Numbered from the stretch's first letter, positions 26,738-47,344 are shown. The stretch: 64,000 nt of DNA from Minisyncoccota bacterium (GCA_040879725.1 JBBDJV010000020.1:9086-73085), one strand, 5' to 3'. Numbers and translations are program-made. The notes: generated from the sequence alone by a model not told the origin.

Positions 26738-27964
26738 TTACCTATTTAATGCACTGATTTGATTCACAAGCTCTTGTCTACCTGCGTCAATCCGATCCTT
26801 ATCCCACACCTTCTCCTTAATTTCTTCTCGTTGTTTTTGGTACCCATCACTCCCCGCAAGAGTTTTTTCAAGCGCAACAAGTAATTCATCAAAAGTCATT
26901 ACCTTTTCCCCTGGTGTTATATCATCATACTCAAAATACATCTCGCGCATTTCACTCTTATACTTATCCAAATCATATGCAAAGAAAATTGTCGGCCTAT
27001 CCGCAAAAAGAAAATCAAAAAATACAGAAGAATAGTCGGTAATAAGAACATCTGTTTTTTTCATGATTGGGTAAGGATCTGTCGATGTATCCACGAAGTA
27101 AATTCGCTTAAATTCATGGTTACGTTTCTCCTCGTGGTGGAATTTAATAAATAAATAGGCATCGTTTGTTTCTAAAAAGTTTTCCAACTTGTCAAAATCA
27201 ATACCGCTGTCACGAAGTGGGTTTTGTGTACCATCTCTAAATGTCGGCATATAAAAAATAATCTTTGACCCTTTTTCTTTCAGAGAGACTGCCCGAGTAA
27301 GGTTCAACTCATCTGCCCCAACACTGTGCAAGGGATTATCTTCCAACCATATCGCATTTCTAGGGTAATCAGCTTTAATAATTCTATCCTCTGCAAGCCG
27401 TGACGCAGACATAAAGAGAGGATCCCATAACTTTCCTGGTGATAGGAAATAATTTCCAAAGAAAAACCTTTCTGGACTATAGAGAAAATAAATAAACCTT
27501 TTAAACCCTTTCGAAGCATATACAAAATTATCTTTCTTTGTTCTATGAGAGTCATACATAACCTTCTTGAGCATGATAGCATGCCAAAGATTAACTACCT
27601 TTGCGCCACCGGTAAGAAAATAATTTACACCCAATGGATGGCAGTCTGTAATTACAATTTCAGCGCGCATTGTTAACCACCAACCCTTAAGTGAATTCGC
27701 CTTTTCAGAATAAATGTTTAAATTTCGCAATTGAGATACAATTTTCTCTTCCCTACTCAACCATACAGCAGTAATACCTTCCTGTTCTTTAGCGTACAAA
27801 AAAAAGTATTTTGAGTTATCCGCAAACCGCACCCCTCTCCATGAATCAAATATCCATAATCCTTTTTTTCGAGGAATAAAGGTAAATACCCATCTCATTA
27901 TCAATAATGGAATATTGCGAATGGTAGACGGAATTGCTCTGGCCCAATTGATAATTTTTTTCAT
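26738..27964 (-). CDS. TagB/TagF-family CDP-alcohol (glycerol/ribitol)-phosphotransferase
   Basis: C-terminal signature VLITDYSSVFFDFLFADRPTIFFAYDLDKY matches the TagF catalytic region. Confidence 0.7.
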   Translation of the reverse strand: MKKIINWARAIPSTIRNIPLLIMRWVFTFIPRKKGLWIFDSWRGVRFADNSKYFFLYAKEQEGITAVWLSREEKIVSQLRNLNIYSEKANSLKGWWLTMRAEIVITDCHPLGVNYFLTGGAKVVNLWHAIMLKKVMYDSHRTKKDNFVYASKGFKRFIYFLYSPERFFFGNYFLSPGKLWDPLFMSASRLAEDRIIKADYPRNAIWLEDNPLHSVGADELNLTRAVSLKEKGSKIIFYMPTFRDGTQNPLRDSGIDFDKLENFLETNDAYLFIKFHHEEKRNHEFKRIYFVDTSTDPYPIMKKTDVLITDYSSVFFDFLFADRPTIFFAYDLDKYKSEMREMYFEYDDITPGEKVMTFDELLVALEKTLAGSDGYQKQREEIKEKVWDKDRIDAGRQELVNQISALNR

Positions 27965-28155: not shown

Positions 28156-29535
28156 TTATAATCTCTCAACAAACAGTTGTGCTAATCGCTTTCCCGCATT
28201 TCCATCAAACGGCTCGATAAAACGCTCCACTATTTTCTTTCTCCCTTCAGCGTGTAGTTCTGGAGTTTCCATATACGCGCATACCGCCTTTCCTAATTCT
28301 TCCTGTGCATACGCTACCACCACCCCTTCTTGTTGTACCAGTTCCTCAAAGTGCGTGTATAAATCATAAAACCTCCTTACTGACTCCCAGTAGTTTACTT
28401 GTTCATAAGGAGTACTACCATCAAACGCAATACATACTATCGGACGATTAAGCACCGCTCCGTCTATGGCGATAGTGGAAGCACCTGTCAGCACTACATC
28501 ACTATAGTACAAAATGGAAACCAAATCTTCATTCTGATTCTTCTTTGATTGAGCTTCTTGTGTATTTACATACTTGCCTTTAGTATCCATGACAACGTGC
28601 TGAAGTCCGTCTGCAACATCGTCATTAATCATGAACTTCGGATGTGCACGATAAAGCACCTGGACATCTGGACCAAAGTCGCCTCGTGATACCATTCCTT
28701 CAAAGACTTCTGGGAGTTCAGCCTCGTGCATAAAAAGAAACGTACCCATTGCACCATACGAAAGTATTTTCTTTGCTGAATCTAGGCCTTTTCGTTTACA
28801 AAACTCATCTCGTGACTCCTGTGGTTTAGTAAATCCAAATAGTGCATCGTAGTGTGGTACGCCAAATAGTTCAATAGGTACTGACTCAGGAATAACTTGT
28901 ACTCCCCGCGCCATTTCCTTTAAAAAGGAGTTCTGGAGGAATAGTTTGTCAGGAAGGACGCGAAGCAATCCATGACTTGAGAGGTTGTCCCAGCTACGCA
29001 CACATCCGTATATTGGTATCTTTTTCTGCTTACACGTCTTTGCTATCGGCACATCAAATTCAAAATTAGTAAGTGATAAAGAAAGCAATGCGTCCGGTTT
29101 GTACTTATCAATCAACAGTAAAGCGTTTGTGTCGGAAGAGGTCTTTAGAATACTTTTTCGCAGAAGGTTCTTGTACCACCCAAACTGAGCAAGGGTTTTA
29201 GTATGAACTCTCTTGATATACGTATCGAAAAAACTTGAATCTCCGCGTTTGTATGAACGCATTTTAGACCACAAGTTTGTATGAGTATCCAGTCCACTCC
29301 GCGCAAGAGACATAAGCAGAGACTCAATTTTGGTCGCTCTGGAACGAGTAAAACCTTCCACAGATACATGTGAATATTCTTTATACTTTTCTTGGAAAAA
29401 AGAAACCTTATCGGGCTGAACCAAAAGCACTACTCTGTCATTAACAGTGGCACCGAAGAAAACAGATGCGAAGTCCGTATCAAGTATATTTCGCGCAACA
29501 ATATCTTCCCCGATGGTAACGAAAAAAGTGCTCAT
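28156..29535 (-). CDS. GT-B fold, TagF-like putative glycosyl-/glycerophosphotransferase
   Basis: C-terminal SDVVLTGASTIAIDGAVLNRPIVCIAFD resembles the TagF/GT-B donor-binding region. The assignment is tentative. Confidence 0.35.
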   Translation of the reverse strand: MSTFFVTIGEDIVARNILDTDFASVFFGATVNDRVVLLVQPDKVSFFQEKYKEYSHVSVEGFTRSRATKIESLLMSLARSGLDTHTNLWSKMRSYKRGDSSFFDTYIKRVHTKTLAQFGWYKNLLRKSILKTSSDTNALLLIDKYKPDALLSLSLTNFEFDVPIAKTCKQKKIPIYGCVRSWDNLSSHGLLRVLPDKLFLQNSFLKEMARGVQVIPESVPIELFGVPHYDALFGFTKPQESRDEFCKRKGLDSAKKILSYGAMGTFLFMHEAELPEVFEGMVSRGDFGPDVQVLYRAHPKFMINDDVADGLQHVVMDTKGKYVNTQEAQSKKNQNEDLVSILYYSDVVLTGASTIAIDGAVLNRPIVCIAFDGSTPYEQVNYWESVRRFYDLYTHFEELVQQEGVVVAYAQEELGKAVCAYMETPELHAEGRKKIVERFIEPFDGNAGKRLAQLFVERL

Positions 29536-32603: not shown

Positions 32604-33302
32604 CTATCTTTTTCTCAATATAAACAGAACAGATCTTCCGAAGAATTTATTATTTGGTAAAAATCGATGCAAAAAAGAAAATTTTCCATATCCTAATTCA
32701 GGATCCATAAACCTGAGACCTTCTACCGAAAAATATTTCTTAATGGCATTTCTCATTAGTGCGTTATGTAAAAAAGTAATGTGATCATTACCTTCTAAAA
32801 AACGATAATATTCACCGTTTTTGAAAAAAGAAAATTTATTATATATATGATAAGGATTAGGAGTAGTAAATATCATTACCCCATCTTGCTTGAGAACTCT
32901 ATGACACTCTCTGAAAAAATGAAAAATATTTTCAAGATGCTCTATCACCTCCACAGAAGTAATTGCGTCTACTGAAGCATCTGGAAATGGAAACATATCC
33001 TTACTAAAATCAAACTCACTAAAACCCTCTTTTGGTTCTCCAACAGAGAGATATCGACTGATATCAGCCCCCATTGTATGGTTAAATCCAAGTGAATGTA
33101 GTAAATTAAAAATCTTTCCATTTGCTGAACCAAGGTCAAGAATATTCCTATCAGAAGAGAAAAAGGTTTTAAGAGTATCGCTAAACACGCTATGTTCTAG
33201 TATTTTAGTTGATGTACTTTTATACTTCTCAAAAATCTCCTGAGAGTGATCTTTCATTTCAGAAGGCGAAAAATACGGTATTGCTTTACTTTTTTTCTCC
33301 AT
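32604..33302 (-). CDS. Class I SAM-dependent methyltransferase
   Basis: ILDLGSANG motif I, an acidic motif II and VMIFTTPNP. Confidence 0.65.
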   Translation of the reverse strand: MEKKSKAIPYFSPSEMKDHSQEIFEKYKSTSTKILEHSVFSDTLKTFFSSDRNILDLGSANGKIFNLLHSLGFNHTMGADISRYLSVGEPKEGFSEFDFSKDMFPFPDASVDAITSVEVIEHLENIFHFFRECHRVLKQDGVMIFTTPNPYHIYNKFSFFKNGEYYRFLEGNDHITFLHNALMRNAIKKYFSVEGLRFMDPELGYGKFSFLHRFLPNNKFFGRSVLFILRKR

Positions 33303-33319: not shown

Positions 33320-34678
33320 TTACTTATTCAAATAACCAATCAATTTTATCTTAATTCTATCGAGAATGACAGCATCCTCAGTGTCAAATTCAAAAAACCT
33401 TCTTATTCTTATTGAAAAACCAGGAAGTACCCTTTTCAACGCTCGATATCTCTCAAAAACAAATATCATTGTAGTAAGGAAAAATTCATACGCAACTCCC
33501 ATAATTCCAAAATAAAATAGTGAAACTGGAAGAAGTAGCAAAATCATGACAGTCTTAACAGAAATAGCCCAAAAGAGGCTTTTTTGAGCTTGTAGCGCGG
33601 CAAACATAGGAGTAAACACTGTGGCAAAGCCGAGAGATATAACCACAGGTAACATTGCTCTAAAAAGCGGAAGAGACTCCAGATAATTTGGAAACATCCA
33701 CGCTACAATAGGAACAAAGATAAAATACGCGACAATCGCCGTACAAACAAATGCGAATACTTGGTACTTAATTGCTTTCGTAGCAATACGAGCAAATCGT
33801 TCTTTGTCGTTTACATGTTGCGGTAAAATAGGACCTAACACCGAAGAAAGATTTACAAGAGACACAGTGTGCTGAAGTAAGCCGTTTGCAACAGCAAATA
33901 TCCCCACTGCCTCAGTACCAAGCATAACTTTTATAATCCATAGACGAATATTTTGCCCGAGACTATTGAAGTATGTTGCAAAAATACCCCACTTACCGTG
34001 ATCATAGAAAAGTGACCATGGAGCTTTTTTATTAACGAGTGTTACTGACCTAAAATAGCGCGTACATTTGAGCAGTGACAGTGCCATCGGTATCATTACC
34101 AAAAACTGTGACAATACCACTGACCAAATAACCGCAGAAACACGCAGTCCTACGAGATACAGTAATACCCATATTACAACCAACTTAAATATTTCTTCGA
34201 GCACTGAATACAGGGACCTATGAAAAAACTTTAGTTCAACACTGAACGCCACCATAAACAAACTACGAAACGGAGAAATAAGAAATGCAAAAGAAACTAT
34301 TTTAAAAAGCCCTCCAGCGTGCTCACTGAAATAATGCGCAATAATATCTGAGCCAAAAAACACAATCGCCCACGCTACAAAACCGAGTGAAATCTGAAGC
34401 AAAAAGAAATTAACAAACAGCTCTTTCATTGCTCGCAAATCCCTTTTTGCTTTCGCTATGCCCATGTCAGCTATAACAATCGGGCTTAAACCTGGGATTG
34501 AGAAGATACTCATTATACCCAAAATAGAAAGTACCAACTCCGCCAAACCATACTCATAGACATTGAGCTTGCGAAGCATGATAAAAATGGTTGCGAGTCC
34601 CACAACTTTTAATACAAGCGTACTCCCGCTAGTCCACGCCGTACCAACTCCTATTGTTCTTTTTAATGTTTCCGCCAC
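33320..34678 (-). CDS. Wzx-type oligosaccharide flippase (MOP superfamily polysaccharide biosynthesis protein)
   Basis: 452 aa with about 12-14 TM helices and a polysaccharide-biosynthesis-protein layout. Confidence 0.65.
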   Translation of the reverse strand: MAETLKRTIGVGTAWTSGSTLVLKVVGLATIFIMLRKLNVYEYGLAELVLSILGIMSIFSIPGLSPIVIADMGIAKAKRDLRAMKELFVNFFLLQISLGFVAWAIVFFGSDIIAHYFSEHAGGLFKIVSFAFLISPFRSLFMVAFSVELKFFHRSLYSVLEEIFKLVVIWVLLYLVGLRVSAVIWSVVLSQFLVMIPMALSLLKCTRYFRSVTLVNKKAPWSLFYDHGKWGIFATYFNSLGQNIRLWIIKVMLGTEAVGIFAVANGLLQHTVSLVNLSSVLGPILPQHVNDKERFARIATKAIKYQVFAFVCTAIVAYFIFVPIVAWMFPNYLESLPLFRAMLPVVISLGFATVFTPMFAALQAQKSLFWAISVKTVMILLLLPVSLFYFGIMGVAYEFFLTTMIFVFERYRALKRVLPGFSIRIRRFFEFDTEDAVILDRIKIKLIGYLNK

Positions 34679-34713
34679 GCTGTTGAGTATATACTATGCT
34701 AATGAAAAAAATA

Positions 34714-35580
34714 CTAGAATTCACTATTCTTAGCATGAATCATGAAATGACTGATCTTTGGTACGGAAGAATAGTATACACTCGAGTCGTTAGTATACAT
34801 ACTGAATCTAAATTTACTTTTTTCAAATATAGATACTATGGAAGATAAATTATTCTTTAGGTTTTTTTCATTATAATGATACTCAAATATAATAGTATTA
34901 ATTGAACCAATCTTTTTTGTTGAGTACAGATGTTCAATAACCACCCCTTCTGACCCTTCAATATCTATCTTCAGTACAGAAACTCTCCGAGTGATAAATG
35001 TGTCTAATGTAACTACAGGAACGGTAACTTCTCTATAATTCGCCATATGTTTTGATTCATATACCTCCCTTTCTCCAGTAGAACCTCCGGGGTAGAGTGT
35101 GTTCTCCCAAAATTTCATCACTCCTTCTCTACTCCCAACAGCAGACTCGACAATTCTTACTCCTGTAAGAGTATTATCAGAGACGTTCTTCTTAAGGTAA
35201 GATACATTCATTGGAGAAGGCTCGAACACAACAACCTCTGCATTAGGATAGAAATACTTCCAATATAAGACAGTAACCCCAACATTTCCTCCGCAATCAA
35301 TGATGAAAGGGGTTTTTTCATCAAGAGAAACCATATAGTCCTCGTAAATGAATACTTCCCTTATTATTGTTATAACGTTATTAATTGATGGTGCAGAGAT
35401 AACAAAACCAAGAAATGAAATTTCCTTTCTGCCCCAACGAGCCTGTATCTTTATCCATAGGTAAGAAAATAGTAATCTTATTCTATATGAAAGAGGATGA
35501 CGTTGGCCTATTATACGAATACTATCATCGAGAAATCTTAACATTTGCCGTAAATAACAATTTCTTGCAGTAATGTGCAA
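34714..35580 (-). CDS. FkbM-family methyltransferase
   Basis: IDCGGNVG and LKIDIEGSE motifs. Confidence 0.7.
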   Translation of the reverse strand: MHITARNCYLRQMLRFLDDSIRIIGQRHPLSYRIRLLFSYLWIKIQARWGRKEISFLGFVISAPSINNVITIIREVFIYEDYMVSLDEKTPFIIDCGGNVGVTVLYWKYFYPNAEVVVFEPSPMNVSYLKKNVSDNTLTGVRIVESAVGSREGVMKFWENTLYPGGSTGEREVYESKHMANYREVTVPVVTLDTFITRRVSVLKIDIEGSEGVVIEHLYSTKKIGSINTIIFEYHYNEKNLKNNLSSIVSIFEKSKFRFSMYTNDSSVYYSSVPKISHFMIHAKNSEF

Positions 35581-35652
35581 GAATCACTGAAACTATAAAC
35601 ATCAACATTATATCCCTTTGTTTACTATAAGTAAAAGCACCCTCATACTTAA

Positions 35653-36798
35653 TCAGGCAAACAAAAAAGAAAGTACTTTCTTCGCTCTTTCCTCCCAATC
35701 AAACTGCAAGGAGTGCTGTAATGCATTACGCGCCCTTATTTCCGCCTCCTCTCTATGAGAAAGTACGTAGGTAATTACATTCCTAAATGAATCCGGGTCA
35801 TCTGGGTGAGCAAAAAACACATCCTCTTCAGTTACTACCTCTTCGATAGAAGGAATGCGTGAAGCTATAACCGGCGTTCCACTTGCTATATATTCAAACA
35901 ACTTCATAGGAGAAGTATAGTGGGTGGAAATCTTTTCTTTCGCGGTATTTGGTAATACCAGAACATCACAAGCTTTCTGCCAAAGTGGCATACTATCGTG
36001 AGGTTGATGCCCTACAAAATGAATATTTTTGTATGAGGAAAAATTACTCTGATATTCCGACACATCCTCAGGGGTTCCTCCTACAAAATATCCGAGTACT
36101 GACGGTGTGGCAGTCAGAGCTTGTGCAAGAGTAGCTACTCCCTTCCATGAATACAAATGTCCTGTGTAGCACACAATGTTAGTATCGAGCGGAAGATTAA
36201 GTTTCTTTCGTGCTTCAGTGCGAGAAAGTACCGTGGTGTATTTCTCCCTATGAACACCATTTCGAACAAGGTGAACATGTTCTCTCTTAACACCAAATTT
36301 ATTTACAAGCTCATCTCGTTTCCATTCAGTGATAATGAGTACATGACGCACACGCAACAATACTTGCGTATAAAACCATTTTTTATTTTCTGGAAAATCG
36401 TGCACTTGGTACAACGTATTTTCTCTAAAGAAAGTCGCAAGTAGTATTGGTAGTGATTCGTTGGAGTAGATAACATCATTCTCTTTCGATTCCTTAAGAA
36501 GATAAAGTAGTGTAAAAAAACTAAACACCACAAAACTAATATGAAATGCAATTTTTTTCATGAACGGAACCTTGAACACATCAAGAGTTGGAAGGTACAC
36601 CACCTTAAAATTTTGAGGAACGGCGTAGTACTCTGTAATACTCTTTTCAGAACGACCTAGCCTACGAGGCGCAATGAGTACTACATCGCATCCGTGTTTT
36701 GCAAATGAGTGAGCTTCCTCCACAGCAAACAATGAACCCGCCTTCTCTGAAGGTAGTCTACCGTGAAATATCATGAATATACGTTTTTTATTCACCAT
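35653..36798 (-). CDS. GT4 glycosyltransferase
   Basis: C-terminal GT-B E-x7-E region (VLPNTAKEKISTHYTSPMKLFEYIASGTPVIAS). Start chosen at MVNKKR; the longer track ORF would overlap the upstream gene. Confidence 0.7.
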   Translation of the reverse strand: MVNKKRIFMIFHGRLPSEKAGSLFAVEEAHSFAKHGCDVVLIAPRRLGRSEKSITEYYAVPQNFKVVYLPTLDVFKVPFMKKIAFHISFVVFSFFTLLYLLKESKENDVIYSNESLPILLATFFRENTLYQVHDFPENKKWFYTQVLLRVRHVLIITEWKRDELVNKFGVKREHVHLVRNGVHREKYTTVLSRTEARKKLNLPLDTNIVCYTGHLYSWKGVATLAQALTATPSVLGYFVGGTPEDVSEYQSNFSSYKNIHFVGHQPHDSMPLWQKACDVLVLPNTAKEKISTHYTSPMKLFEYIASGTPVIASRIPSIEEVVTEEDVFFAHPDDPDSFRNVITYVLSHREEAEIRARNALQHSLQFDWEERAKKVLSFLFA

Positions 36799-37603
36799 CA
36801 ATAAGCAGTCTACCGTATCGTTTGCTTGTATGCCAGATAAGAACACAAGGAACATACAAACGGAACAATTCGTACTTAAGGGGAACATGAAATGCAAAAG
36901 GGTGAAATATGCGAGCAAGTAGAGGTTTAAGGATTCCTTTTACTATACGGACCACATTACCCACTATCACTCGATAGAAAAAGAGAAAAGGATTCCGCGA
37001 GCTCCATTTGCGGGCGAGTATTGGAAAACGAGCCTGTACCTTTCCTTTGTACACATGCCATGACAATTGTGAATCAAGTGGAACAAGCCACGGTGCATGA
37101 ATAATTCCAACTCTGTCTTTAGGTACTTCAAAGGATAACTTCTCATGCATCGGCTTTATAAAACGTGCACCTGTTTTCTTAATATTACAAAGTCTCACCT
37201 GATATACCGGTTTTAATTGGTAATACTCTCGCAGAGTTTCAGGATGCACTAGTGCATACCGTACACGGTATGCATCACAATGTTGCTGTGTCACCGCTGT
37301 TCGTGTTTCTTGCACTAATTCAGGCGTTGCCACCTCATCTGAATCTATGTAGAAAAACCAATCTTCATGTGCTGAATCAAGTAATATATTTCGTTCACGA
37401 GAAAAATTACTGATTGGATGCCCTGGGTTGCTCTGTGTTAGCACGCGCGCGCCGTAGGCGCGCGCTATAGCAAGTGTCCCATCACTACTCCCACCGTCCG
37501 CCACAACAATGTCGCTAAACTCTTTGACACTTTCAAGACACCGCGCAAGCGTTTGTTCTGAATTGTACGTCAATATTCCTATAGTACAGGGTATTTTTTC
37601 CAT
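36788..37603 (-). CDS. GT2 glycosyltransferase
   Basis: GILTYNSE, ADGGSSDGT and DSDE motifs. Confidence 0.7.
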   Translation of the reverse strand: MEKIPCTIGILTYNSEQTLARCLESVKEFSDIVVADGGSSDGTLAIARAYGARVLTQSNPGHPISNFSRERNILLDSAHEDWFFYIDSDEVATPELVQETRTAVTQQHCDAYRVRYALVHPETLREYYQLKPVYQVRLCNIKKTGARFIKPMHEKLSFEVPKDRVGIIHAPWLVPLDSQLSWHVYKGKVQARFPILARKWSSRNPFLFFYRVIVGNVVRIVKGILKPLLARIFHPFAFHVPLKYELFRLYVPCVLIWHTSKRYGRLLIDGE

Positions 37604-37604: not shown

Positions 37605-38159
37605 TTATTTCTGTGCGAATTGCTTCCAATTTTTCACATATGTAAGTGCTGACTGGTACCCAAGTGCTAAGTGTGGATTATCACGCACATAATAATGCTT
37701 AAATAGCCCCTTATTATATAGTGATTGGACAGTAAACTTTGGATCATTCACTGCAACTATTATTTTTTTAGGTTTAAGTTCCTTTCTCAAATCTAGAATT
37801 CCATGAGAAAAATATGGACTATAAACAAGTGCCACATCGCCTCTTTTCCAATCCTCTACAATACCCTTCTTTATCAATTTAATAATTCCACTTGTATCAA
37901 TAGGCAAGTTGTAAAAACAAACATAGCGGTAAAATGATTCAGCTTCAAAGAAACGTTCAGTTACGCCAGTAGCATTCTGATGTGCATCAAAAATATCACA
38001 AAGCCACATAGTGCCTGAACGAGCAACAAGAGTACCTAGAATGAGCGTTTTGCCGTTCTGCAATCCTCTTTCATACTCATCATCAACCCTATCTAATTCA
38101 TCAGCGGTATACTTATGGCGCGAATCCCACGATAAGCAAAGTTTTCCAATTTTTCTCAT
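37605..38159 (-). CDS. Sulfotransferase-like protein (tentative)
   Basis: ILGTLVARSGTMWL resembles the 5'-PSB loop (PKSGTTW/RSGTxxL) of PAPS-dependent sulfotransferases. At 184 aa it is short for the family. Confidence 0.3.
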   Translation of the reverse strand: MRKIGKLCLSWDSRHKYTADELDRVDDEYERGLQNGKTLILGTLVARSGTMWLCDIFDAHQNATGVTERFFEAESFYRYVCFYNLPIDTSGIIKLIKKGIVEDWKRGDVALVYSPYFSHGILDLRKELKPKKIIVAVNDPKFTVQSLYNKGLFKHYYVRDNPHLALGYQSALTYVKNWKQFAQK

Positions 38160-38161: not shown

Positions 38162-39295
38162 CTATGCAATTTTATGTATTATCTCAACAATATCTTCAAC
38201 TGTTGCTAATCGAGGATTATTCATTGCTCTTTCTGCAGAATATTCATCCAGTATAGCATTTTTCGCATCAGCGATAGAAATACCATAATCACGCAAACGT
38301 GTTGAAACCTGAATTGATTCGAAAAACGATTTAAGGGAATCAGCATAGAGAGCATTTTTGCTTCCTGTTATAAAAGAACCCATCTGCTCTACTAAATTAC
38401 GGACATACAAATAACCCCTTGGGTCACTACATGAATTAAGGGTAACTCCTAGATTAAACATAAAAACCTCGGGAAGAAATAGCGCGACAGCTTTTCCGTG
38501 CGGAATTTTATATCGAGATGTTAAGGGATATGACAGTGCATGAGCTAATGTTGTTTTCGTAATATTGATCGCCTTTCCTGCACTATGTGAACCTTGTGCA
38601 ATATTTACTAAAGCATCTTTATCTCCACCACACGCAAGGTAAAGATTTTTATACAAAAGTTTAAACGCATTTTCTGACAACAAAAGAGATTCCTTACTAG
38701 AATTCACCGACCACCACGACTCAATAGACTGACAAAAAGCGTCCACTCCGCTAGCTGCAGTCACTTCCCACGGAGATGAAAAAAGAAACTGAGGATCAAC
38801 AATTGCGTACTCCGGCAACATTTTTTTATCTGCACAAGAGTATTTTTTACCTTTAATATATAAAACGGCAAAATGGGTTGATTCGCTACCCGAACCGGCT
38901 GTTGTTGGGACCGCAATAACTGGCACAGCACTTGTTTTTTCTATACTAGCACCATAACTCACCTCTGAGATTTGCTCTGGCTTATCAGCAAACAAACTAA
39001 TCAATTTCGCCACATCAATCACACTCCCCCCACCAACTGCAATAATTACAGACGAGGTATGTTCACGATATTTCATAACACCTTTCAAGAGATCATCTTC
39101 GGAAGGGTTGATTGAAAAATCATTAAATACTTCAACTTTATAAGGAGCTACGAGCGACATGATTATTTTACGTGCACCCGATGTCTCAAAAGAATTTTTG
39201 CTCGTGACTAAAAAAATATTTTTTACCTTCTGATCTAAAAGAATTTGCGATAAGTGTTCTGTTGAATTTACACCAAAATAACTTTTTTGATTCAT
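38162..39295 (-). CDS. Group III iron-containing alcohol dehydrogenase (candidate phosphonoacetaldehyde reductase)
   Basis: GGGSVIDVAK NAD motif and the Fe-ADH His/Asp pattern. It lies adjacent to ppd and ppm. Confidence 0.6.
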   Translation of the reverse strand: MNQKSYFGVNSTEHLSQILLDQKVKNIFLVTSKNSFETSGARKIIMSLVAPYKVEVFNDFSINPSEDDLLKGVMKYREHTSSVIIAVGGGSVIDVAKLISLFADKPEQISEVSYGASIEKTSAVPVIAVPTTAGSGSESTHFAVLYIKGKKYSCADKKMLPEYAIVDPQFLFSSPWEVTAASGVDAFCQSIESWWSVNSSKESLLLSENAFKLLYKNLYLACGGDKDALVNIAQGSHSAGKAINITKTTLAHALSYPLTSRYKIPHGKAVALFLPEVFMFNLGVTLNSCSDPRGYLYVRNLVEQMGSFITGSKNALYADSLKSFFESIQVSTRLRDYGISIADAKNAILDEYSAERAMNNPRLATVEDIVEIIHKIA

Positions 39296-39306
39296 CTTTT
39301 CAATAC

Positions 39307-40440
39307 TTATTTTTTATTGAGAAATTCCATCAAATCTTTCTTATTTTGATTGGGAGGAATTGTAGGACGACCTAAATCAGATCGTGCTCCTTTTTTAGTT
39401 CGTATTTCAATAAAAATAGGACCTGTGTTTGGTTTACTATCCTTAAAGATTTGTGAAATAGCACTATCAGTATCTGCGTAATATACTTCTTTATAACCAC
39501 ACGCTCTCGCAATTTCACAAAAATTTACAAAAAATCCAGCTGTTTTTTGACCCCCTACTGATTCATGCGCACCATTATTGAACACAATATGTACAAAATT
39601 ACTTGGATGAAATTGACCTATAGTTGCCATTCCACCCAAATGCATAATTGCAGCACCGTCACCATCAAAACAGTAAATATTTTTATTTGGCTTACTTAGT
39701 GCTAAGCCCAATGCGATTTGGGAAGCATGACCCATTGATCCAATAGTCAGAAAATCACAGGCATGACCCATAGATTTCGCATGTCGTATCTCAAACAATT
39801 CACGGGAAAGTTTTCCTGTTGTTGAAACAATCACAGAATTTTTTGGAATTTCCTCTACCACTGAAGTGAGAGCTTGTTCACGTGTAAGTGTGTATTTCTC
39901 CTCTGACTTTGGCTTTGCATGTTTCTCAGCTGAAAATGTGCCTTTGCGAACAAGCAAAGCATGAGGTCTGCATGTTTTCTTTATAGAATCCAACACAGCA
40001 AGTAACTCTTTCGCTGCTTTTTTTTCATCTGACGATAAAACGGTATGAGGTACATTAATTGCATTAAGCACTGCGGGAGTTACTTCACCCATAGTTATAT
40101 GTTGAGGTTCATCACTCACCCCAGGTTCTCCTCTCCAACCAATAAGTAGCAGTGCTGGCATACAATATACCTTCTCGTCCAGAAGCGAGGTTAGAGGGTT
40201 AACTGCATTTCCTAAACCAGAATTCTGCATATATATGAGAGGAACTTTCCCGGTCGCCAAATGATGTCCAGCAGCGATACCAAGTGCAGAGCCTTCATTC
40301 GCGGCTATGATATGTTGGGATGGGTCCAATGTTACATCTATATGCTCACAGAAATCCTTTAAGAGTGAATCCGGAACTCCGGTAAAAAGGTTTACATCAT
40401 TCTCCAAAAGCAATTTTAGAAAAAAATGGGAAGAAATCAT
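39307..40440 (-). CDS. ppd: Phosphonopyruvate decarboxylase (ThDP-dependent)
   Basis: N-terminal FTGVPDSLLKDFC is the Ppd/AepY signature, with a ThDP-binding GDGAA...NNG region; 377 aa. Confidence 0.75.
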   Translation of the reverse strand: MISSHFFLKLLLENDVNLFTGVPDSLLKDFCEHIDVTLDPSQHIIAANEGSALGIAAGHHLATGKVPLIYMQNSGLGNAVNPLTSLLDEKVYCMPALLLIGWRGEPGVSDEPQHITMGEVTPAVLNAINVPHTVLSSDEKKAAKELLAVLDSIKKTCRPHALLVRKGTFSAEKHAKPKSEEKYTLTREQALTSVVEEIPKNSVIVSTTGKLSRELFEIRHAKSMGHACDFLTIGSMGHASQIALGLALSKPNKNIYCFDGDGAAIMHLGGMATIGQFHPSNFVHIVFNNGAHESVGGQKTAGFFVNFCEIARACGYKEVYYADTDSAISQIFKDSKPNTGPIFIEIRTKKGARSDLGRPTIPPNQNKKDLMEFLNKK

Positions 40441-40445
40441 ACAAA

Positions 40446-41783
40446 TTATTTATTCTTTTCATGATTACCTTCAATCAAGGTCAATATTTCTTTGATAGAC
40501 ATGCAATATTTTTCTGAAGCCTCCTTTGACCTTCCATTTTCTAAAATAGCACGTGCGGTGTTAACCATTGCGGGGTAAGCACTTCGAAGTAAATGATTCG
40601 CATAAATAACTATCCTGAAGCCCATTTTCTCTAAATCTGTCTCGTTAAGATGGTTATATGTTGTAGGGACCGCAACAAGTGGAGTGTTGCTTCCAAACTC
40701 CTTATATTTCTTACAAAACTCTTCTATTTCATCAATTTTTTTATCTTTACTATGTATCATTATTCCATCAGCTCCAGCAGCTATATACGCCTTCGCACGC
40801 TTAAGAGCATCATCTACACCTTTACCTAAAATCAAACTTTCAATACGAGCAATGATCATGAAATCTTCAGAAATACGAGCATTCCGACCCACAGCGAGCT
40901 TCTCACAGAAATTTTTTATACTTTCCAATTCCTGTTTAACAGCAGTACCAAACAAGGAATTTCTCTTCAAACCTTTTTTATCTTCAATAATAACCGCAGA
41001 CACGCCCAGCCGTTCAAGTGTTTTTACTGTATAAGGAAAATGCTCAACTAAGCCACCTGTATCGCCATCGTAAATTACAGGCTTGGTAGTAATTTCCAAA
41101 ATATCATGCAGTGTACCAATACGAGATGTTAGATCTACCAATTCAATATCAGGCTTGCCTTTCATAGTCGAATCAGTAAGGCTACTTAACCACATAAAAT
41201 CAAATTCTCTCACAACACCCTTTTTCTCAATCTGCGTATGTTCAGCTATAAGTGCCGATAAACCACTATGAGCTTCAATACCTTTTACTATTGCCTTTGC
41301 GTCTAACAACCGTCTCAATCTTGATATCCTAACACTTGGTGTAACACCAACTTCTTTTAATGCCTTATTGAGCAATGATGACGAAATACCTTCAGTATAA
41401 TTTGGCTCAACCAATACCCCACCCCATTCTTTTAGTAACTTAACAACCTGTGCACGCACCTCTTTTTGAATCCCCTTTTTCCAATCATCACCATGCACAA
41501 CAACATCAGGTTTAACCTTTCTTAAATTTGAAGAATAGTCGAGTGTTTCTTGAGGGATCACTTCACTGACACCAACTATACTCGAAACAATCTCCTTCCT
41601 CTGTTCATATGATAAAAAAGGTAGTCTTTTGTAGCTTGCGATAGCTTTGTCTGTAAGTAGGCCGACAATAACTCTCCCATGTTTTGCACCCTCACGAATA
41701 ATTTTTAAATGGCCAGGATGTATTAAATCAGCACTCATTCCTATGTATACTATCTTTTCTCCCTTTTGTTTTATTTTATTCAT
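40446..41783 (-). CDS. ppm: Bifunctional cytidylyltransferase / phosphoenolpyruvate mutase fusion
   Basis: N-terminal cytidylyltransferase fold ([15 protein letters not shown] HxGH motif). The C-terminal PEP-mutase/ICL-superfamily barrel carries the PEP-mutase-specific [11 protein letters not shown] motif. Confidence 0.75.
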
Positions 41784-41877: not shown

Positions 41878-42657
41878 TTAGGCCATAATGTTTTTTAGTT
41901 TTTTCACATATGTAAGTGCTGAAGTCATGCGAAATATGAATTGAAAAAATGTGATACTTCTGTCTACTTGTATTCGTGGAATACGATAGACATTTGCGCC
42001 ACTGGTAACCAGCGCTTCAGTTATACAACACGCGCCACGAAAATGCCTTGCGATAACAGACTCCACTCGCTTATCCACCCTCCCAGCAGGATACGCGCAG
42101 AGTGTTGAGGTAGTTCCAGTCAATTGTGTGATGCGTTGTTTGGATGACTCAATCTCACGTACTAACTCCGAGTCAGACAATTCCGTAAAATTAGTATGAC
42201 TTTCACCGTGAACTTCAAATGTAACTACTCCTTCCTTTGCAATGCGTTGTACTCCCTCTTCTGTCGGTCGGGAAAGGTTTCCTAATTTCTCCATAGGAGC
42301 GAGATTGGTCGTGAGAAAAACAGTTGCGGGAATGCCATATTTTTTTAGCAGTGGAGCAACAAATGAAATGGTATCTTCATATCCATCATCTATTGTTATC
42401 GCCACACTCCTACGCGGAAGAATGCTCTTTCCTTCAATATGATTTACTACATCATGAAGCGAAACAGGATTCATATTACTTTTTATGTATTTCAGTTGCT
42501 GCTCGAAAGCTTTTTCTGAAACACCATATTTCCACGAAGTATTCTCGACCGAATGGTACATAAGCACCGCTATTTCTGGCCGTGCATCAAAAATACGAAA
42601 CAAACATCGTACAAGGAATGCAAAAAAATATACTATTGTTTTTATTAGTGACTGCAT
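41878..42657 (-). CDS. Polysaccharide deacetylase (CE4/NodB homology domain)
   Basis: AITIDDGYEDT and FEVHGESH motifs with an N-terminal TM helix. Confidence 0.7.
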   Translation of the reverse strand: MQSLIKTIVYFFAFLVRCLFRIFDARPEIAVLMYHSVENTSWKYGVSEKAFEQQLKYIKSNMNPVSLHDVVNHIEGKSILPRRSVAITIDDGYEDTISFVAPLLKKYGIPATVFLTTNLAPMEKLGNLSRPTEEGVQRIAKEGVVTFEVHGESHTNFTELSDSELVREIESSKQRITQLTGTTSTLCAYPAGRVDKRVESVIARHFRGACCITEALVTSGANVYRIPRIQVDRSITFFQFIFRMTSALTYVKKLKNIMA

Positions 42658-43253
42658 ACCATTTCAAGTATTCGCTCCTCATCTTCTCCTCCTTTGATAA
42701 AGTAACAGTTCTTATACACCTCTCTACTTTCATTCATAATAATTGAATGTACTTCCAAAACCACCTTTCTCCATTGTACTTCATATTGACTTCCCATAAA
42801 TGAACGCATTCCACGTGCGCGCTTTTTTTGTCTATAAAGCACAGTTTCCCACGGAAGATCAAACATAATATGCATATCAGCTTGAGGCGCAAGCATGAGC
42901 AATTTGCGTATACGCTCGGCAGAGGGAGTACGTTCAAATAATCCTATAATCTGCTGGAGCATACCTTCATCCAACACAATATTTCCCATATTTCTACGAG
43001 CCTCTTGCCACCGTGCAATTCTATTAAACAGCACCCTTAATTTCCACTGAATAAGAAAAAGACCTCTTCCTTCAGTAAGGCAAATCCAGACACAGGTGAT
43101 TGTAAATCTACTATGATTACACAAAAAATAAAAAAAATACCAACAGCGCATAAGGATGTTCTGGTGTCGAGGCGGAGCATACCCACACGCTTCTATTGCG
43201 CGTGCAAATGTGCTTTTCCCCGAGCCCGGTAGACCATACAACTCTATAATCAT
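42645..43253 (-). CDS. P-loop NTPase / small kinase-like protein
   Basis: Walker A YGLPGSGKST within the first 15 residues. Its specific family is unclear. Confidence 0.45.
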   Translation of the reverse strand: MIIELYGLPGSGKSTFARAIEACGYAPPRHQNILMRCWYFFYFLCNHSRFTITCVWICLTEGRGLFLIQWKLRVLFNRIARWQEARRNMGNIVLDEGMLQQIIGLFERTPSAERIRKLLMLAPQADMHIMFDLPWETVLYRQKKRARGMRSFMGSQYEVQWRKVVLEVHSIIMNESREVYKNCYFIKGGEDEERILEMVCSH

Positions 43254-44014
43254 CCTTTAAACGTTATTTTATACGACTCTGAAAAGAAACGAGTAATGAT
43301 ATTCATCTGCATCCACCCGAGTACAAAAAAAAGGAAACGGTCGGCAAAGGCAGAATGTAATCCTGGAAATACAAATGTTACCGGTCGCACCGAAAGTACA
43401 GAAAACCCAACCTCAGACAGTAACAACACAAAGTGTCTGTCATCAATCTGTAATGAGTGAAATTCACTCACATTCTTTTGTCTATTCCATGGACGGCGAT
43501 ACTGTGGTGTTTTGGTAATAATTGATCCTAACGAAGTGGTGTCCATTACTTCACGAACTTTTTTAACCAATGCTTCCTTGTCAGAGAAATATTCAACTGC
43601 ACGAGATGAGAAAAATACAGAAGCTTTTCTTGTTGCGGTATACTCAAGAAAATCAGAGACAATGTATTCAATACCACTTGCTCCCGACAAATTGTCTTTT
43701 GCAAGTTTTATCATCTCATCTGAAATATCAACCACCTGATAGTTCATATCGGGAAACTCATTCAAAAACTCTCTTGTCCAAGTGCCTGGACCTGGACCTA
43801 ACTCAAGATATGATTTAGGCACAGGATTTTTCTTTAGCTCAGAAATAAAATTACACACCGCATGACGAGTCATATCATAACCAGCCTTTCTCTGTGGAGT
43901 AGAAAACCAACGCTCCCTCTCGTACTCTCCTCTATACGTTCCAGGAATCATTGTATTGTATTTCCCTCGCACATCCTCATTTTTCATCACTCTATTGTAT
44001 GCGAAAGACACCAC
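43250..44014 (-). CDS. Class I SAM-dependent methyltransferase
   Basis: LELGPGPGTWT motif I. Confidence 0.65.
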   Translation of the reverse strand: MVSFAYNRVMKNEDVRGKYNTMIPGTYRGEYERERWFSTPQRKAGYDMTRHAVCNFISELKKNPVPKSYLELGPGPGTWTREFLNEFPDMNYQVVDISDEMIKLAKDNLSGASGIEYIVSDFLEYTATRKASVFFSSRAVEYFSDKEALVKKVREVMDTTSLGSIITKTPQYRRPWNRQKNVSEFHSLQIDDRHFVLLLSEVGFSVLSVRPVTFVFPGLHSAFADRFLFFVLGWMQMNIITRFFSESYKITFKG

Positions 44015-46681: not shown

Positions 46682-47344
46682 TTAGAAAAACTTGGTGGGA
46701 ACTTTTACAATGCCTTTTTCTCTATCTTCATATGTCGTATATAGTTTTGGCTCACCAGTCTTTCGAAGTACATAAATAATTTCATACGCAAATCCTGGAT
46801 ACTTTAGAGGATGAAAAGCAAACTTAGTCTTCACTAATCTAAAAGAAACACCAACCTCGTTTTCAAGAGTAAAACCAACCCTATCAGCAAGAGTACGGAC
46901 ATTGTACCGTGTGAAGCTTTGAAAATGTTCTACCCATTTTGCCTTACATACACGATGCTTGAAATGATGGAAAAAGATATTCAAAACATTCTCCCAGTAG
47001 TAATTAGGATTTGGAGTAGAAAAAACAAGTACTCCGTTAGGTTTCAATACTCTATAAAGCTCAGAGAGTAGTTGAATCGGATTGGCAACATGTGCAAGAA
47101 CACACCCCATAGTTACCGCATCAAAAAAACCATCATCATACGGAATATGTCCATCATTGAGATCAACCTGTCGCACCTCTTTATAACTAGCAGGATGGTT
47201 ATCTGTAACAATATCTATTCCATATATTTCCCCTCCCTTCAAATATAGACTTGGATTCTGTGCATACCCAACATCAAGAACCTTTTCGGCATCTGGATAT
47301 ACGGCATATAATGTTTCAGCAATTAACTGACCTTTGCTTTTCAT
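46682..47344 (-). CDS. Class I SAM-dependent methyltransferase
   Basis: VLDVGYAQN motif I and VLVFSTPNP. Confidence 0.6.
   Translation of the reverse strand: MKSKGQLIAETLYAVYPDAEKVLDVGYAQNPSLYLKGGEIYGIDIVTDNHPASYKEVRQVDLNDGHIPYDDGFFDAVTMGCVLAHVANPIQLLSELYRVLKPNGVLVFSTPNPNYYWENVLNIFFHHFKHRVCKAKWVEHFQSFTRYNVRTLADRVGFTLENEVGVSFRLVKTKFAFHPLKYPGFAYEIIYVLRKTGEPKLYTTYEDREKGIVKVPTKFF

What the first reader, a model, noticed from the sequence alone, without database searches (positions are those of the whole stretch)
38162..41783. Complete phosphonate biosynthesis module inside a surface-glycan locus: cytidylyltransferase-PEP mutase fusion, phosphonopyruvate decarboxylase, Fe-alcohol dehydrogenase
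Three consecutive minus-strand genes encode the full route from PEP to a C-P compound.
- 40446-41783: PEP mutase (specific EDKxxxKRNS motif) fused to an N-terminal HxGH cytidylyltransferase.
- 39307-40440: Ppd (FTGVPDSLLKDFC).
- 38162-39295: group III Fe-ADH.

With no AEP transaminase visible, the ADH points to 2-hydroxyethylphosphonate rather than 2-aminoethylphosphonate. The fused cytidylyltransferase points to a CMP-activated phosphonate (or phospho-alcohol) donor for decorating a glycan or teichoic-acid-like polymer. Ppm-nucleotidyltransferase fusions are known from genome surveys as markers of phosphonoglycan or phosphonolipid synthesis. Finding one inside a minimal AT-rich (possibly CPR-type) genome next to a nonulosonic-acid module is unusual.
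Basis: partly seen in the sequence, partly recalled or inferred. Interest (0 to 1): 0.85.

Follow-up and report, generated by a model that had tools for sequence, protein, structure and literature searches.

The report
Hydroxyethylphosphonate cassette in a CPR glycan locus

Summary
ORF 40446-41783 is a cytidylyltransferase-PEP mutase fusion. It passes the curated PEP mutase model (381 bits, cutoff 319.55) and has [10 protein letters not shown]. Its N-terminal domain is 60% identical to the Fom1 cytidylyltransferase domain (PDB 5x3d), which makes CMP-HEP. ORF 39307-40440 passes the phosphonopyruvate decarboxylase model (498.5 bits, cutoff 312.5). ORF 38162-39295 is a group III alcohol dehydrogenase carrying the PhpC-type tyrosine. 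NCBI already names it phosphonoacetaldehyde reductase.

No AEP transaminase, MpnS/HepD-type or Fom3-type gene is in the window. HEP activated as CMP-HEP is therefore the best reading.

The cassette is common. The order Ppm-Ppd-(NTase)-ADH recurs in 22 of 35 related loci from many bacterial and archaeal phyla. Published surveys put this fusion at 23.6% of Ppm enzymes and the HEP branch at 8.5% of neighbourhoods.

The window comes from a Candidatus Paceibacterota MAG, and related Patescibacteria carry the same locus.

Two things were less expected:
- The next ORF (37605-38159) is a truncated member of an unannotated sulfotransferase-fold family that is often embedded in this cassette.
- TagF-like transferases recur beside the cassette and are the only candidate CMP-HEP transferases in the window.

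Verdict: a new member of a known kind, of modest interest.

The parts
40446..41783 (-). Bifunctional protein. The N-terminal HxGH cytidylyltransferase (residues ~10-145) is of the Fom1 type and is predicted to act as a CTP:2-hydroxyethylphosphonate cytidylyltransferase. The C-terminal PEP mutase (residues ~152-440) converts PEP to phosphonopyruvate.
   Evidence: PF01467 plus PF13714. TIGR02320 scores 381.1 bits against a cutoff of 319.55. PDB 5x3d (Fom1 N-terminal domain) E = 2e-51 with 81/135 identical; PDB 5unc PEP mutase E = 7e-44. Motifs: HPGH 22-25, YTEGISS 129-135, DGDTG 239, [10 protein letters not shown] 267-276, ARIE 312, IHSK 343.
39307..40440 (-). Phosphonopyruvate decarboxylase (Ppd/AepY/Fom2 type). 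It is TPP-dependent, makes phosphonoacetaldehyde and pulls the unfavourable mutase equilibrium forward.
   Evidence: TIGR03297 scores 498.5 bits against a cutoff of 312.5. PF02776 plus PF02775. GDG-X26-NN at 260-289. Best PDB matches are the phosphonopyruvate decarboxylase alpha/beta subunits of 9iz3. A Ppd homologue is present in 30 of 35 related loci.
38162..39295 (-). PhpC/FomC-type group III alcohol dehydrogenase. Predicted phosphonoacetaldehyde reductase that makes 2-hydroxyethylphosphonate.
   Evidence: PF00465 plus PF25137. No NCBIfam equivalog is passed; TIGR03405 reaches 179 of 423.7 bits. GGGS at 88-91. D185/Q189/H252/H266 form the metal site. K151, T248, Y256 and R356 are invariant or nearly so in 120 homologues. 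By spacing they match PhpC Lys157/Thr256/Tyr264/Arg349 (PMC13576164). The identical protein is named 'phosphonoacetaldehyde reductase' by NCBI. An ADH homologue follows Ppd in 22 of 35 related loci.
37605..38159 (-). C-terminally truncated copy (184 aa) of a roughly 300-aa sulfotransferase-fold family with no Pfam or NCBIfam model. It is probably inactive here. Full-length copies lie inside or beside the same cassette in other genomes.
26738..27964 (-). TagF/TarF-like CDP-alcohol phosphotransferase. Candidate (inferred) CMP-HEP:glycan phosphonyl transferase.
   Evidence: PF04464 scores 194 bits over the full length. The best NCBIfam match, TarF, reaches only 105.7 of 550 bits. Homologues lie beside the cassette in L006, L037, L038, L039 and L042. 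Other TagF-like genes directly follow the ADH in L003 and L005.
28156..29535 (-). Second, more divergent TagF-like protein. Alternative candidate transferase.
   Evidence: PF04464 scores 43 bits over residues 224-454. It is 76% identical to the syntenic gene in L037.
33320..37603 (-). Glycan-assembly genes directly downstream in the same array: GT2 (36788-37603), GT4 (35653-36918), FkbM methyltransferase (34714-35580) and a Wzx/MOP flippase (33320-34678).
   Evidence: Pfam results; NCBIfam results. The genes are syntenic with L037.
41878..44014 (-). Genes directly upstream in the same array: polysaccharide deacetylase (41878-42657), a P-loop AAA_33-like protein (42645-43253) and a SAM methyltransferase (43250-44014).
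   Evidence: Pfam results. The deacetylase and methyltransferases also accompany the cassette in L037, L038 and L042.

Best explanation
This is a four-activity, three-gene cassette that makes CMP-activated 2-hydroxyethylphosphonate (HEP) for surface-glycan tailoring.

1. The PEP mutase domain rearranges PEP to phosphonopyruvate. Family membership is shown; activity is inferred.
2. Ppd decarboxylates phosphonopyruvate to phosphonoacetaldehyde, which drives the unfavourable equilibrium forward. Family membership is shown.
3. The PhpC-type ADH reduces phosphonoacetaldehyde to HEP with NAD(P)H. This is inferred from conserved gene order and PhpC-type active-site residues.
4. The N-terminal Fom1-type cytidylyltransferase domain condenses HEP with CTP to give CMP-HEP. 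This is inferred from 60% identity to the characterised Fom1 domain.
5. CMP-HEP then serves as a CDP-alcohol-like donor. A transferase moves the hydroxyethylphosphonyl group onto a sugar hydroxyl of a lipid-linked glycan and releases CMP. The glycan is built by the neighbouring glycosyltransferases and exported by the Wzx flippase. This step is inferred. The only CDP-alcohol-type transferases in the window are the two TagF-like proteins at 26738-29535.

The organism is a Paceibacterota (CPR) bacterium, and the whole locus is conserved in a related MAG.
For: Curated HMM passes for Ppm and Ppd.

EDKxxxxxNS, HxGH, DxDTG and TPP motifs are present.

The N-terminal domain matches the Fom1 cytidylyltransferase domain structure 5x3d at E = 2e-51 with 60% identity. 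By contrast, the TagD-type glycerol-3-phosphate cytidylyltransferase model reaches only 49.5 of 165.4 bits. Fom1 CyTase is reported to make CMP-HEP (PMC6697681).

ADH:
- It follows Ppd in 22 of 35 related loci across many phyla.
- Its closest homologues are named phosphonoacetaldehyde reductase.
- K151/T248/Y256/R356 and D185/H252/H266 are conserved. The Tyr is reported as strictly conserved in PhpC and replaced by Phe in sulfoacetaldehyde reductases (PMC13576164).

Absences in the window:
- No aminotransferase, LicD, PntC or sulfatase-type gene.
- No radical-SAM or cupin domain (same calls).

Glycan context: GT2, GT4, Wzx, GT-C/PMT_2, GtrA and a Wzy_C/ligase-like gene are all on the same strand.

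TagF-like genes sit directly after the ADH in L003 and L005, and near the cassette in L006, L018, L025, L033, L037, L038 and L042. LicD-like genes occupy that position in L007 and L013.

HEP-decorated exopolysaccharide is a known product class, e.g. in Stackebrandtia nassauensis (cited in PMC8942020).
Against: No biochemical data exist for this organism.

The ADH passes no curated NCBIfam equivalog; TIGR03405 reaches 179 of 423.7 bits. Its residue equivalences to PhpC were set by spacing from the metal ligands, not by a formal alignment to a characterised PhpC.

The same PF01467-Ppm fusion also occurs with an AEP transaminase (L011; GCF 743 in PMC8942020). The fused domain alone therefore does not fix HEP as its substrate.

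The TagF-like genes lie 9-12 kb from the cassette and could instead use CDP-glycerol made elsewhere in the genome.

The window covers only 64 kb of the genome, so absent genes may lie elsewhere.
Confidence: 0.72

Rival explanations
1. The end product is a phosphonolipid or a small diffusible phosphonate (fosfomycin-like logic), not a glycan decoration. CMP-HEP would then be a transient intermediate or a donor to a lipid head group.
For: In fosfomycin biosynthesis the Fom1 cytidylylation is transient (PMC6697681). A related locus, L018, couples the cassette to a radical-SAM/CyTase protein. Phosphonolipid clusters also carry fused cytidylyltransferases (PMC8942020).
Against: The window has no radical-SAM (Fom3), HppE, FomD, CDP-alcohol phosphatidyltransferase or NRPS/ATP-grasp gene. 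The cassette is embedded, with gaps of 1-11 nt between the Ppm fusion and the GT2 start, in an array of glycosyltransferases, a flippase and polymer-tailoring genes. That array is conserved in L037.
Confidence: 0.12
2. The pathway makes 2-aminoethylphosphonate using a transaminase encoded elsewhere. The ADH is then a side activity or unrelated, and the fused domain makes CMP-AEP.
For: AEP is by far the commonest product, at 56% of neighbourhoods (PMC8942020). PF01467-Ppm fusions occur in AEP clusters (L011).
Against: There is no aminotransferase domain in the window and no tblastn hit with AEP transaminases from L011 or L014. The ADH has PhpC-type substrate residues and a conserved position after Ppd. 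In L011 the transaminase occupies the slot that the ADH occupies here.
Confidence: 0.06
3. The fused cytidylyltransferase domain activates a non-phosphonate alcohol phosphate, such as glycerol-3-phosphate to give CDP-glycerol for the two TagF-like enzymes. HEP would then be attached or used by some other route.
For: PF01467 includes TagD and CCT/ECT enzymes. TagF-like proteins normally use CDP-glycerol or CDP-ribitol. The window has no separate TagD or TarI.
Against: The domain scores 178 bits with 60% identity against the Fom1 HEP cytidylyltransferase, but only 37 bits against TagD (1coz). It fails the TIGR01518 cutoff at 49.5 of 165.4 bits. The fusion to Ppm is conserved over 35 loci.
Confidence: 0.06
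4. The ADH works catabolically, oxidising HEP to phosphonoacetaldehyde, as reported for some PhpC homologues.
For: PhpC-type enzymes are reversible and some sit in degradative clusters (PMC13576164).
Against: Degradative clusters pair phpC with phnX or phnY-phnA. None of these is in the window, whereas the biosynthetic ppm and ppd are adjacent.
Confidence: 0.02

Closest known systems
Fom1 / Fom2 / FomC of Streptomyces wedmorensis fosfomycin biosynthesis (CyTase-Ppm fusion, Ppd, Fe-ADH)
   Same: The three-protein architecture and the predicted chemistry up to CMP-HEP are identical. The N-terminal domain is 60% identical to the crystallised Fom1 CyTase domain (5x3d).
   Different: The window has no Fom3 (B12 radical-SAM methylase), Fom4 (HppE) or FomD. 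CMP-HEP is therefore not an intermediate to an epoxide antibiotic. The context is a glycan locus in a CPR bacterium.
Phosphonyl tailoring (Pnt) pathways with PntC cytidylyltransferases (Rice et al. 2019, PMC6697681)
   Same: The logic matches: make a phosphonate, activate it as a CMP conjugate, and hand it to a cell-surface acceptor. In both, the nucleotidyltransferase is fused to Ppm.
   Different: The characterised PntC enzymes belong to PF12804 (LicC-like) and prefer AEP. Here the domain is PF01467 (HxGH) and the predicted substrate is HEP. The window has no LicD-like transferase.
HEP-type phosphonoglycan and methylphosphonate clusters (Stackebrandtia nassauensis HEP-exopolysaccharide; Nitrosopumilus maritimus / SAR11 MPn clusters), as inventoried in PMC8942020
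   Same: They share the Ppm-Ppd-PhpC core leading to HEP, next to polysaccharide genes. SAR11 and Marinimicrobia loci with the same fused Ppm were recovered here.
   Different: The window has no MpnS or HepD-type oxygenase, so HEP itself is the likely end group. The related MAG L037 carries a PhyH-family oxygenase that the window lacks.
Wall teichoic acid TagD/TagF system
   Same: A CTP-dependent HxGH cytidylyltransferase is paired with TagF-family transferases that move an alcohol-phosphoryl group from a CDP/CMP donor to a glycan.
   Different: The donor would carry a C-P phosphonate rather than glycerol phosphate. The TagF-like proteins fail every curated TarB/TarF/TarL model. Their use of CMP-HEP is untested.

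Membership tests
PEP mutase (Ppm, TIGR02320) | Score above the curated equivalog cutoff, and above sister families (methylisocitrate lyase, phosphonopyruvate hydrolase, CPEP mutase) | tested here: met
   381.1 bits against a cutoff of 319.55. Sister models all fall below their cutoffs: 145/374, 103/354 and 57/420.
PEP mutase (Ppm, TIGR02320) | Ppm-specific EDKxxxxxNS motif and active-site DxDTG, R (ARIE) and H (IHSK) | tested here: met
   [10 protein letters not shown] 267-276, DGDTG 239-243, ARIE 312 and IHSK 343 are present. They align with the same motifs in PDB 5unc. The motif definition comes from PMC6697681.
PEP mutase (Ppm, TIGR02320) | Catalyses PEP to phosphonopyruvate | not testable with these tools
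   Needs an enzyme assay.
Fom1-type cytidylyltransferase domain fused to Ppm (PF01467) | PF01467 domain with HxGH and RTxGIS-type motifs, N-terminal to Ppm in one polypeptide | tested here: met
   PF01467 scores 55.3 bits against a cutoff of 21 over residues 17-138. HPGH 22-25 and YTEGISS 129-135 are present. It is a single 445-aa ORF.
Fom1-type cytidylyltransferase domain fused to Ppm (PF01467) | Close similarity to the characterised Fom1 CyTase domain rather than to TagD, CCT or RfaE | tested here: met
   5x3d scores 178 bits with 81/135 identical. TagD 1coz scores 37 bits and ECT 3elb 52 bits.
Fom1-type cytidylyltransferase domain fused to Ppm (PF01467) | Uses HEP plus CTP to form CMP-HEP | not testable with these tools
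   Inferred from homology and the adjacent ADH. The same fusion occurs with an AEP transaminase in L011, so the substrate is not fixed by the domain alone.
Phosphonopyruvate decarboxylase (Ppd, TIGR03297) | Score above the curated cutoff and above sulfopyruvate decarboxylase; TPP-binding motif | tested here: met
   498.5 bits against a cutoff of 312.5. ComDE-type models reach 108/221 and 92/148. GDG-X26-NN lies at 260-289.
PhpC/FomC-type phosphonoacetaldehyde reductase (PF00465 clade) | Group III ADH fold with a NAD-binding GGGS motif and Asp/His/His metal ligands | tested here: met
   PF00465 plus PF25137. GGGS at 88-91. D185, H252 and H266 are invariant in 120 homologues, and the fourth ligand position is Gln189 in 117 of 120.
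PhpC/FomC-type phosphonoacetaldehyde reductase (PF00465 clade) | Phosphonate-binding Lys/Thr/Tyr/Arg set. The Tyr four residues after the first metal His is strictly conserved in PhpC and is Phe in sulfoacetaldehyde reductase (PMC13576164). | tested here: inconclusive
   K151, T248, Y256 and R356 are conserved in 118-120 of 120 homologues at the expected spacing. The equivalence was set by spacing, not by alignment to a characterised PhpC sequence.
PhpC/FomC-type phosphonoacetaldehyde reductase (PF00465 clade) | Passes a curated phosphonate-ADH model (TIGR03405 Phn_Fe-ADH/PsrA) | tested here: not met
   179 bits against a cutoff of 423.7. Lactaldehyde reductase scores similarly at 184.6 of 537. 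That model describes one subfamily only. NCBI nevertheless names the identical protein phosphonoacetaldehyde reductase.
PhpC/FomC-type phosphonoacetaldehyde reductase (PF00465 clade) | Clustered with ppm and ppd (biosynthetic context) | tested here: met
   It is adjacent here. The order Ppm-Ppd-(NTase)-ADH occurs in 22 of 35 related loci.
Fosfomycin (Fom) pathway | Fom3 B12/radical-SAM methylase, Fom4 HppE epoxidase and FomD hydrolase | tested here: not met
   No radical-SAM, cupin/HppE or DUF402 domain was found in any window ORF scanned.
AEP (Ppm-Ppd-AEPT) pathway | Class V aminotransferase (PhnW/AepZ) next to Ppd | tested here: not met
   No aminotransferase domain is in the window. tblastn with AEPT sequences from L011 and L014 gives no hit.
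Sulfotransferase superfamily (for ORF 37605-38159 and its full-length relatives) | Sulfotransferase fold with a 5'-PSB-type RSGT loop | tested here: met
   [not shown]
Sulfotransferase superfamily (for ORF 37605-38159 and its full-length relatives) | Match to a sulfotransferase sequence model; intact full-length protein in the window | tested here: not met
   There is no Pfam, NCBIfam or PDB sequence hit even at E <= 1-10. The window copy lacks the C-terminal ~120 residues because of a roughly 360-nt deletion.
TagF/TarF CDP-glycerol glycerophosphotransferases (for 26738-27964 and 28156-29535) | PF04464 domain; passes a curated TarB/TarF/TarL equivalog | tested here: inconclusive
   PF04464 is present at 194 and 43 bits. 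The best equivalog, TarF, reaches only 105.7 of 550 bits. The donor substrate is unknown.

The most novel reading that the evidence does not exclude
Patescibacteria (CPR) routinely decorate a surface glycan with 2-hydroxyethylphosphonate. The missing phosphonyl-transfer or tailoring step would be carried out by enzymes not yet linked to phosphonates:
- TagF-like transferases that take CMP-HEP in place of CDP-glycerol.
- And/or the unannotated sulfotransferase-fold family found inside the cassette. This family might use the CMP-phosphonate anhydride as an analogue of the phosphosulfate donor, or might sulfate HEP or the phosphonoglycan.

In this particular window the sulfotransferase-fold gene is truncated. 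The window would therefore be a natural knockout of that step.
Probability: 0.15. Interest if true: 0.6.

Novelty: new member of a known kind. Interest (0 to 1): 0.3.

Why it matters
The cassette adds little to phosphonate biochemistry. The enzymes, the fusion and the HEP branch are all described, and automated annotation already names them.

What it does contribute:
- A tiny-genome, probably episymbiotic Paceibacterota lineage spends PEP, TPP chemistry and CTP on a hydrolysis-resistant C-P decoration of its envelope glycan, and it does so recurrently. No paper in the library searched links CPR/Patescibacteria to phosphonate synthesis.
- It gives comparative leads for the still unidentified transferases that attach CMP-phosphonates to glycans. 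TagF-like and LicD-like genes recur in the slot after the ADH.
- It reveals a small, unannotated sulfotransferase-fold family that travels with the cassette.

Tried and rejected
Leads that gave nothing:
- Rfam and tRNA scans of the window found nothing.
- The promoter/terminator scan found no more sites than shuffled sequence does. The promoter-like site at 41811-41784 is therefore given no weight.
- Profile search of the sulfotransferase-fold family against PDB sequences and Pfam gave only noise. hhalign against a bona fide Sulfotransfer_3 neighbour was uninformative, at probability 0.3. Only fold comparison identified the family.
- The afdb50 fold library was unavailable.
- The window's own genome was not among the 35 GTDB loci; the best hit was 65% identical. 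Its origin came instead from the exact-match protein names and a Logan contig.

Ideas considered and rejected:
- MpnS/HepD-type processing of HEP. The locus has no unassigned large ORF and no cupin domain.
- LicD, PntC or sulfatase-type transferases in the window. tblastn with representatives from related loci found none.
- The sulfotransferase-fold family being strictly phosphonate-specific. Four of 11 contexts examined have no phosphonate genes in the flank.
- A catabolic role for the ADH. There is no phnX, phnY or phnA.

Full report
**Observation**

The three minus-strand ORFs exist exactly as described.

ORF 40446-41783 (445 aa) carries PF01467 (cytidylyltransferase-like, residues 17-138) and PF13714 (PEP mutase, residues 157-414).
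- It passes the curated PEP mutase equivalog TIGR02320 with 381.1 bits against a cutoff of 319.55.
- The sister models all fail: phosphonopyruvate hydrolase 145/374, methylisocitrate lyase 103/354 and carboxy-PEP mutase 57/420.
- The translation shows HPGH (22-25), YTEGISS (129-135), DGDTG (239-243), [10 protein letters not shown] (267-276), ARIE (312) and IHSK (343).

ORF 39307-40440 (377 aa) passes the phosphonopyruvate decarboxylase equivalog TIGR03297.
- It scores 498.5 bits against a cutoff of 312.5, while the sulfopyruvate decarboxylase subunits reach 108 and 92 bits.
- It has the TPP motif GDG-X26-NN at 260-289.

ORF 38162-39295 (377 aa) is a group III alcohol dehydrogenase with PF00465 plus PF25137.

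Gaps between the three genes are 5 and 11 nt.

**Origin**

The identical 184-aa and 377-aa proteins are held by NCBI under 'MAG: Candidatus Paceibacterota bacterium' on a 75,467-bp contig. The ADH is already named 'phosphonoacetaldehyde reductase' there.

The window has SecA, MurB, a Mur ligase, TruB and HisRS, so it is bacterial. The CPR guess was right. GC is 36-44%, which is not strikingly AT-rich.

**The cytidylyltransferase domain**

Against PDB sequences, residues 10-145 match 5x3d at E = 2e-51 with 81/135 identical residues. 5x3d is the N-terminal domain of the Fom1 'phosphoenolpyruvate phosphomutase'.

Rice et al. 2019 (PMC6697681) state three relevant points:
- The Fom1 N-terminal CyTase transfers CMP from CTP to HEP to give CMP-HEP.
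- 59.5% of true Ppm enzymes are fused to other domains.
- PF01467, exemplified by Fom1, is fused to 23.6% of Ppm enzymes.

The TagD-type model fails at 49.5 of 165.4 bits. TagD structure 1coz scores only 37 bits.

**The alcohol dehydrogenase**

No NCBIfam equivalog is passed. Lactaldehyde reductase reaches 184.6/537, TIGR03405 Phn_Fe-ADH 179/423.7 and sulfoacetaldehyde reductase 134.7/700. Three lines nevertheless support a PhpC-type phosphonoacetaldehyde reductase.
1. Among 35 related loci from GTDB genomes, an ADH homologue follows Ppd directly in 18 loci. In 4 more it follows after an inserted NTP_transf_3 domain.
2. The closest homologues come from the same phyla as the fused Ppm relatives and are repeatedly named phosphonoacetaldehyde reductase.
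3. In an alignment of 120 homologues, D185, H252 and H266 are invariant and position 189 is Gln in 117. K151, T248, Y256 and R356 are conserved in 118-120.

A 2026 study of PhpC enzymes (PMC13576164) describes metal ligands Asp191/His195/His260/His274. It also describes a phosphonate clamp of Lys157, Thr256, Tyr264 and Arg349. The Tyr is strictly conserved in PhpC and replaced by Phe in sulfoacetaldehyde reductases, which use Gln at the second ligand position. By spacing from the metal ligands, K151, T248 and Y256 are the exact counterparts, and R356 is the likely one. This equivalence is an inference from spacing, not a formal alignment.

**What is absent**

About 50 window ORFs were scanned against Pfam. 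None has an aminotransferase, radical-SAM, cupin/HppE, LicD, NTP_transf_3, sulfatase or CDP-alcohol phosphatidyltransferase domain. tblastn with AEP transaminase, LicD, PntC-like and sulfatase-like proteins from related loci finds nothing. HEP, not AEP, methylphosphonate or a fosfomycin-type product, is therefore the best-supported end group. The caveat is that only 64 kb of the genome is visible.

**Context**

The cassette lies in a long minus-strand array.
- Upstream are a methyltransferase, a P-loop protein and a polysaccharide deacetylase.
- Downstream are a 184-aa ORF, GT2, GT4, an FkbM methyltransferase and a Wzx-type flippase.
- Further downstream are more methyltransferases, a GT-C/PMT_2 protein, another GT2 and two TagF-like proteins.
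- The array ends with a NeuB / KdsC-like phosphatase / CMP-sugar synthetase trio and a Wzy_C-TPR protein.

The nonulosonic-acid genes all score below their curated cutoffs.

A second Patescibacteria MAG (L037, GCA_964436015.1) is syntenic with window 26738-49011 at 44-91% amino-acid identity. Other Patescibacteria MAGs (L038/L039, L042) carry a rearranged cassette in the order Ppd-ADH-X-Ppm inside glycosyltransferase-rich loci. The JGI metagenome contig L047 (taxon not established) has the window's order Ppm-Ppd-ADH-X.

**How the phosphonate might be attached**

The slot after the ADH in related loci is occupied by different proteins:
- TagF-like Glyphos_transf proteins in L003 and L005. Members of the same cluster occur elsewhere in the L018, L025 and L033 loci.
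- LicD-like proteins in L007, with the same cluster also present in L013.
- Extra LicC/PntC-type nucleotidyltransferases in L009, L012 and L014.
- Sulfatase-superfamily proteins in L023 (after the ADH) and L002 (after Ppd).
- An AEP transaminase takes the slot after Ppd in L011.

TagF-like genes also lie within a few kb of the cassette in L006, L037, L038 and L042.

In the window, the only enzymes that normally use CDP-alcohol-type donors are the two TagF-like proteins at 26738-27964 and 28156-29535. They fail all curated TarB/TarF/TarL models. Assigning them as CMP-HEP:glycan transferases is a hypothesis, not a result.

**The 184-aa ORF (37605-38159)**

This ORF has no Pfam or NCBIfam hit. 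Its homologues (124 proteins at E <= 1e-3 in 5.8 billion clusters) are mostly 290-317 aa. Those that carry a source name come mainly from Patescibacteria (Paceibacterota, Harrisonbacteria), with two from Elusimicrobiota.

The window copy stops at about residue 172 of the family. DNA alignment to L037 shows a roughly 360-nt deletion, so the window copy is probably inactive.

Eleven distinct contexts were examined:
- Six have the CyTase-Ppm/Ppd/ADH cassette: the window, L037, L038/39, L042, L043 and L047.
- One has a phosphonate ABC importer plus an HTH-NTP_transf_3 protein (L040/41).
- Four have no phosphonate genes in the flank (L044, L045, L046, L048).
- A canonical Sulfotransfer_3 gene is adjacent in L046 and L047 and lies one to four genes away in L048 and L043.

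The family is thus frequently, but not exclusively, linked to phosphonates. Its substrate is unknown.

**Comparison with known systems and verdict**

The module is architecturally the Fom1/Fom2/FomC trio without the downstream fosfomycin enzymes. It follows the 'phosphonyl tailoring' logic of CMP activation described by Rice et al., and it belongs to the HEP branch, which accounts for 8.5% of Ppm neighbourhoods (PMC8942020). That branch includes an HEP-decorated exopolysaccharide.

It is a new member of a known kind, already recognisable by standard annotation. Searches of the paper library found no report linking CPR/Patescibacteria to PEP mutase. That is only absence of evidence.

Interest is modest. 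The recurrent presence in CPR glycan loci and the two transferase leads are the only points beyond the textbook picture.

Noticed in passing
[not shown]
   Followed up: partly
window 38162-39295 (-), residue 189: In the phosphonoacetaldehyde-reductase-like clade, the second canonical metal ligand (His in most group III ADHs) is Gln in 117 of 120 homologues. Gln is also reported at this position for sulfoacetaldehyde reductase. The PhpC-diagnostic Tyr (Y256) is retained.
   Followed up: partly
window 26738-27964 and 28156-29535 (-): There are two TagF-like (PF04464) genes, but no TagD or TarI cytidylyltransferase is in the window. TagF-like genes recur next to the Ppm-Ppd-ADH cassette in unrelated phyla (L003, L005, L006, L018, L025, L033).
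   Followed up: partly
window 23350-26701 (-): A nonulosonic-acid-type trio is present, together with a histidine phosphatase at 24704-25336. All three score below their curated NCBIfam cutoffs: NeuB-like 336.6/399.65, KdsC/KDN-9-P-phosphatase-like 70-71 bits against cutoffs of 180-208, and PseF-like CMP-sugar synthetase 143/205.7. No aminotransferase or dehydratase of the Pse/Leg routes is present, so the sugar is undefined.
   Followed up: partly
window 44223-46649 (+): An 808-aa protein with three Laminin_G_3/ConA-like lectin domains is the only plus-strand gene interrupting the minus-strand glycan locus. It has a weak TafC fimbrial-protein similarity. A 588-aa counterpart sits at the same place in L037.
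   Followed up: no
window 29535-30281, 32604-33302, 34714-35580, 43250-44014, 46682-47344, 47357-47977 (-): The locus holds six SAM-dependent methyltransferases, one of them of the FkbM type. Their targets (sugar, phosphonate O-methylation or other) are unknown.
   Followed up: no
L037 14947-15816 (-): The syntenic Patescibacteria locus carries a PhyH-family Fe/2-oxoglutarate oxygenase and a TylF methyltransferase where the window has other methyltransferases. This could point to a hydroxylated HEP derivative in that relative.
   Followed up: no
window 53606-56993 (-): A VirD4/TraG-like coupling ATPase (631 aa) is followed by a secreted-looking protein with lamin-tail and PKD domains (503 aa), directly upstream of the glycosyltransferase block.
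   Followed up: no
window 35653-36918 vs 36788-37603 (-): The listed GT4 ORF, with a TTG start at 36918, overlaps the GT2 gene by 131 nt. The L037 orthologue is 380 aa rather than 421, so the true start is probably further downstream.
   Followed up: no
L018 11323-12750; L020 6656-8179; L031 12969-14078: Further PF01467 cytidylyltransferase fusions occur next to the cassette in other phyla. They are fused to a radical-SAM domain, to a PfkB kinase domain, and to an unassigned domain.
   Followed up: no
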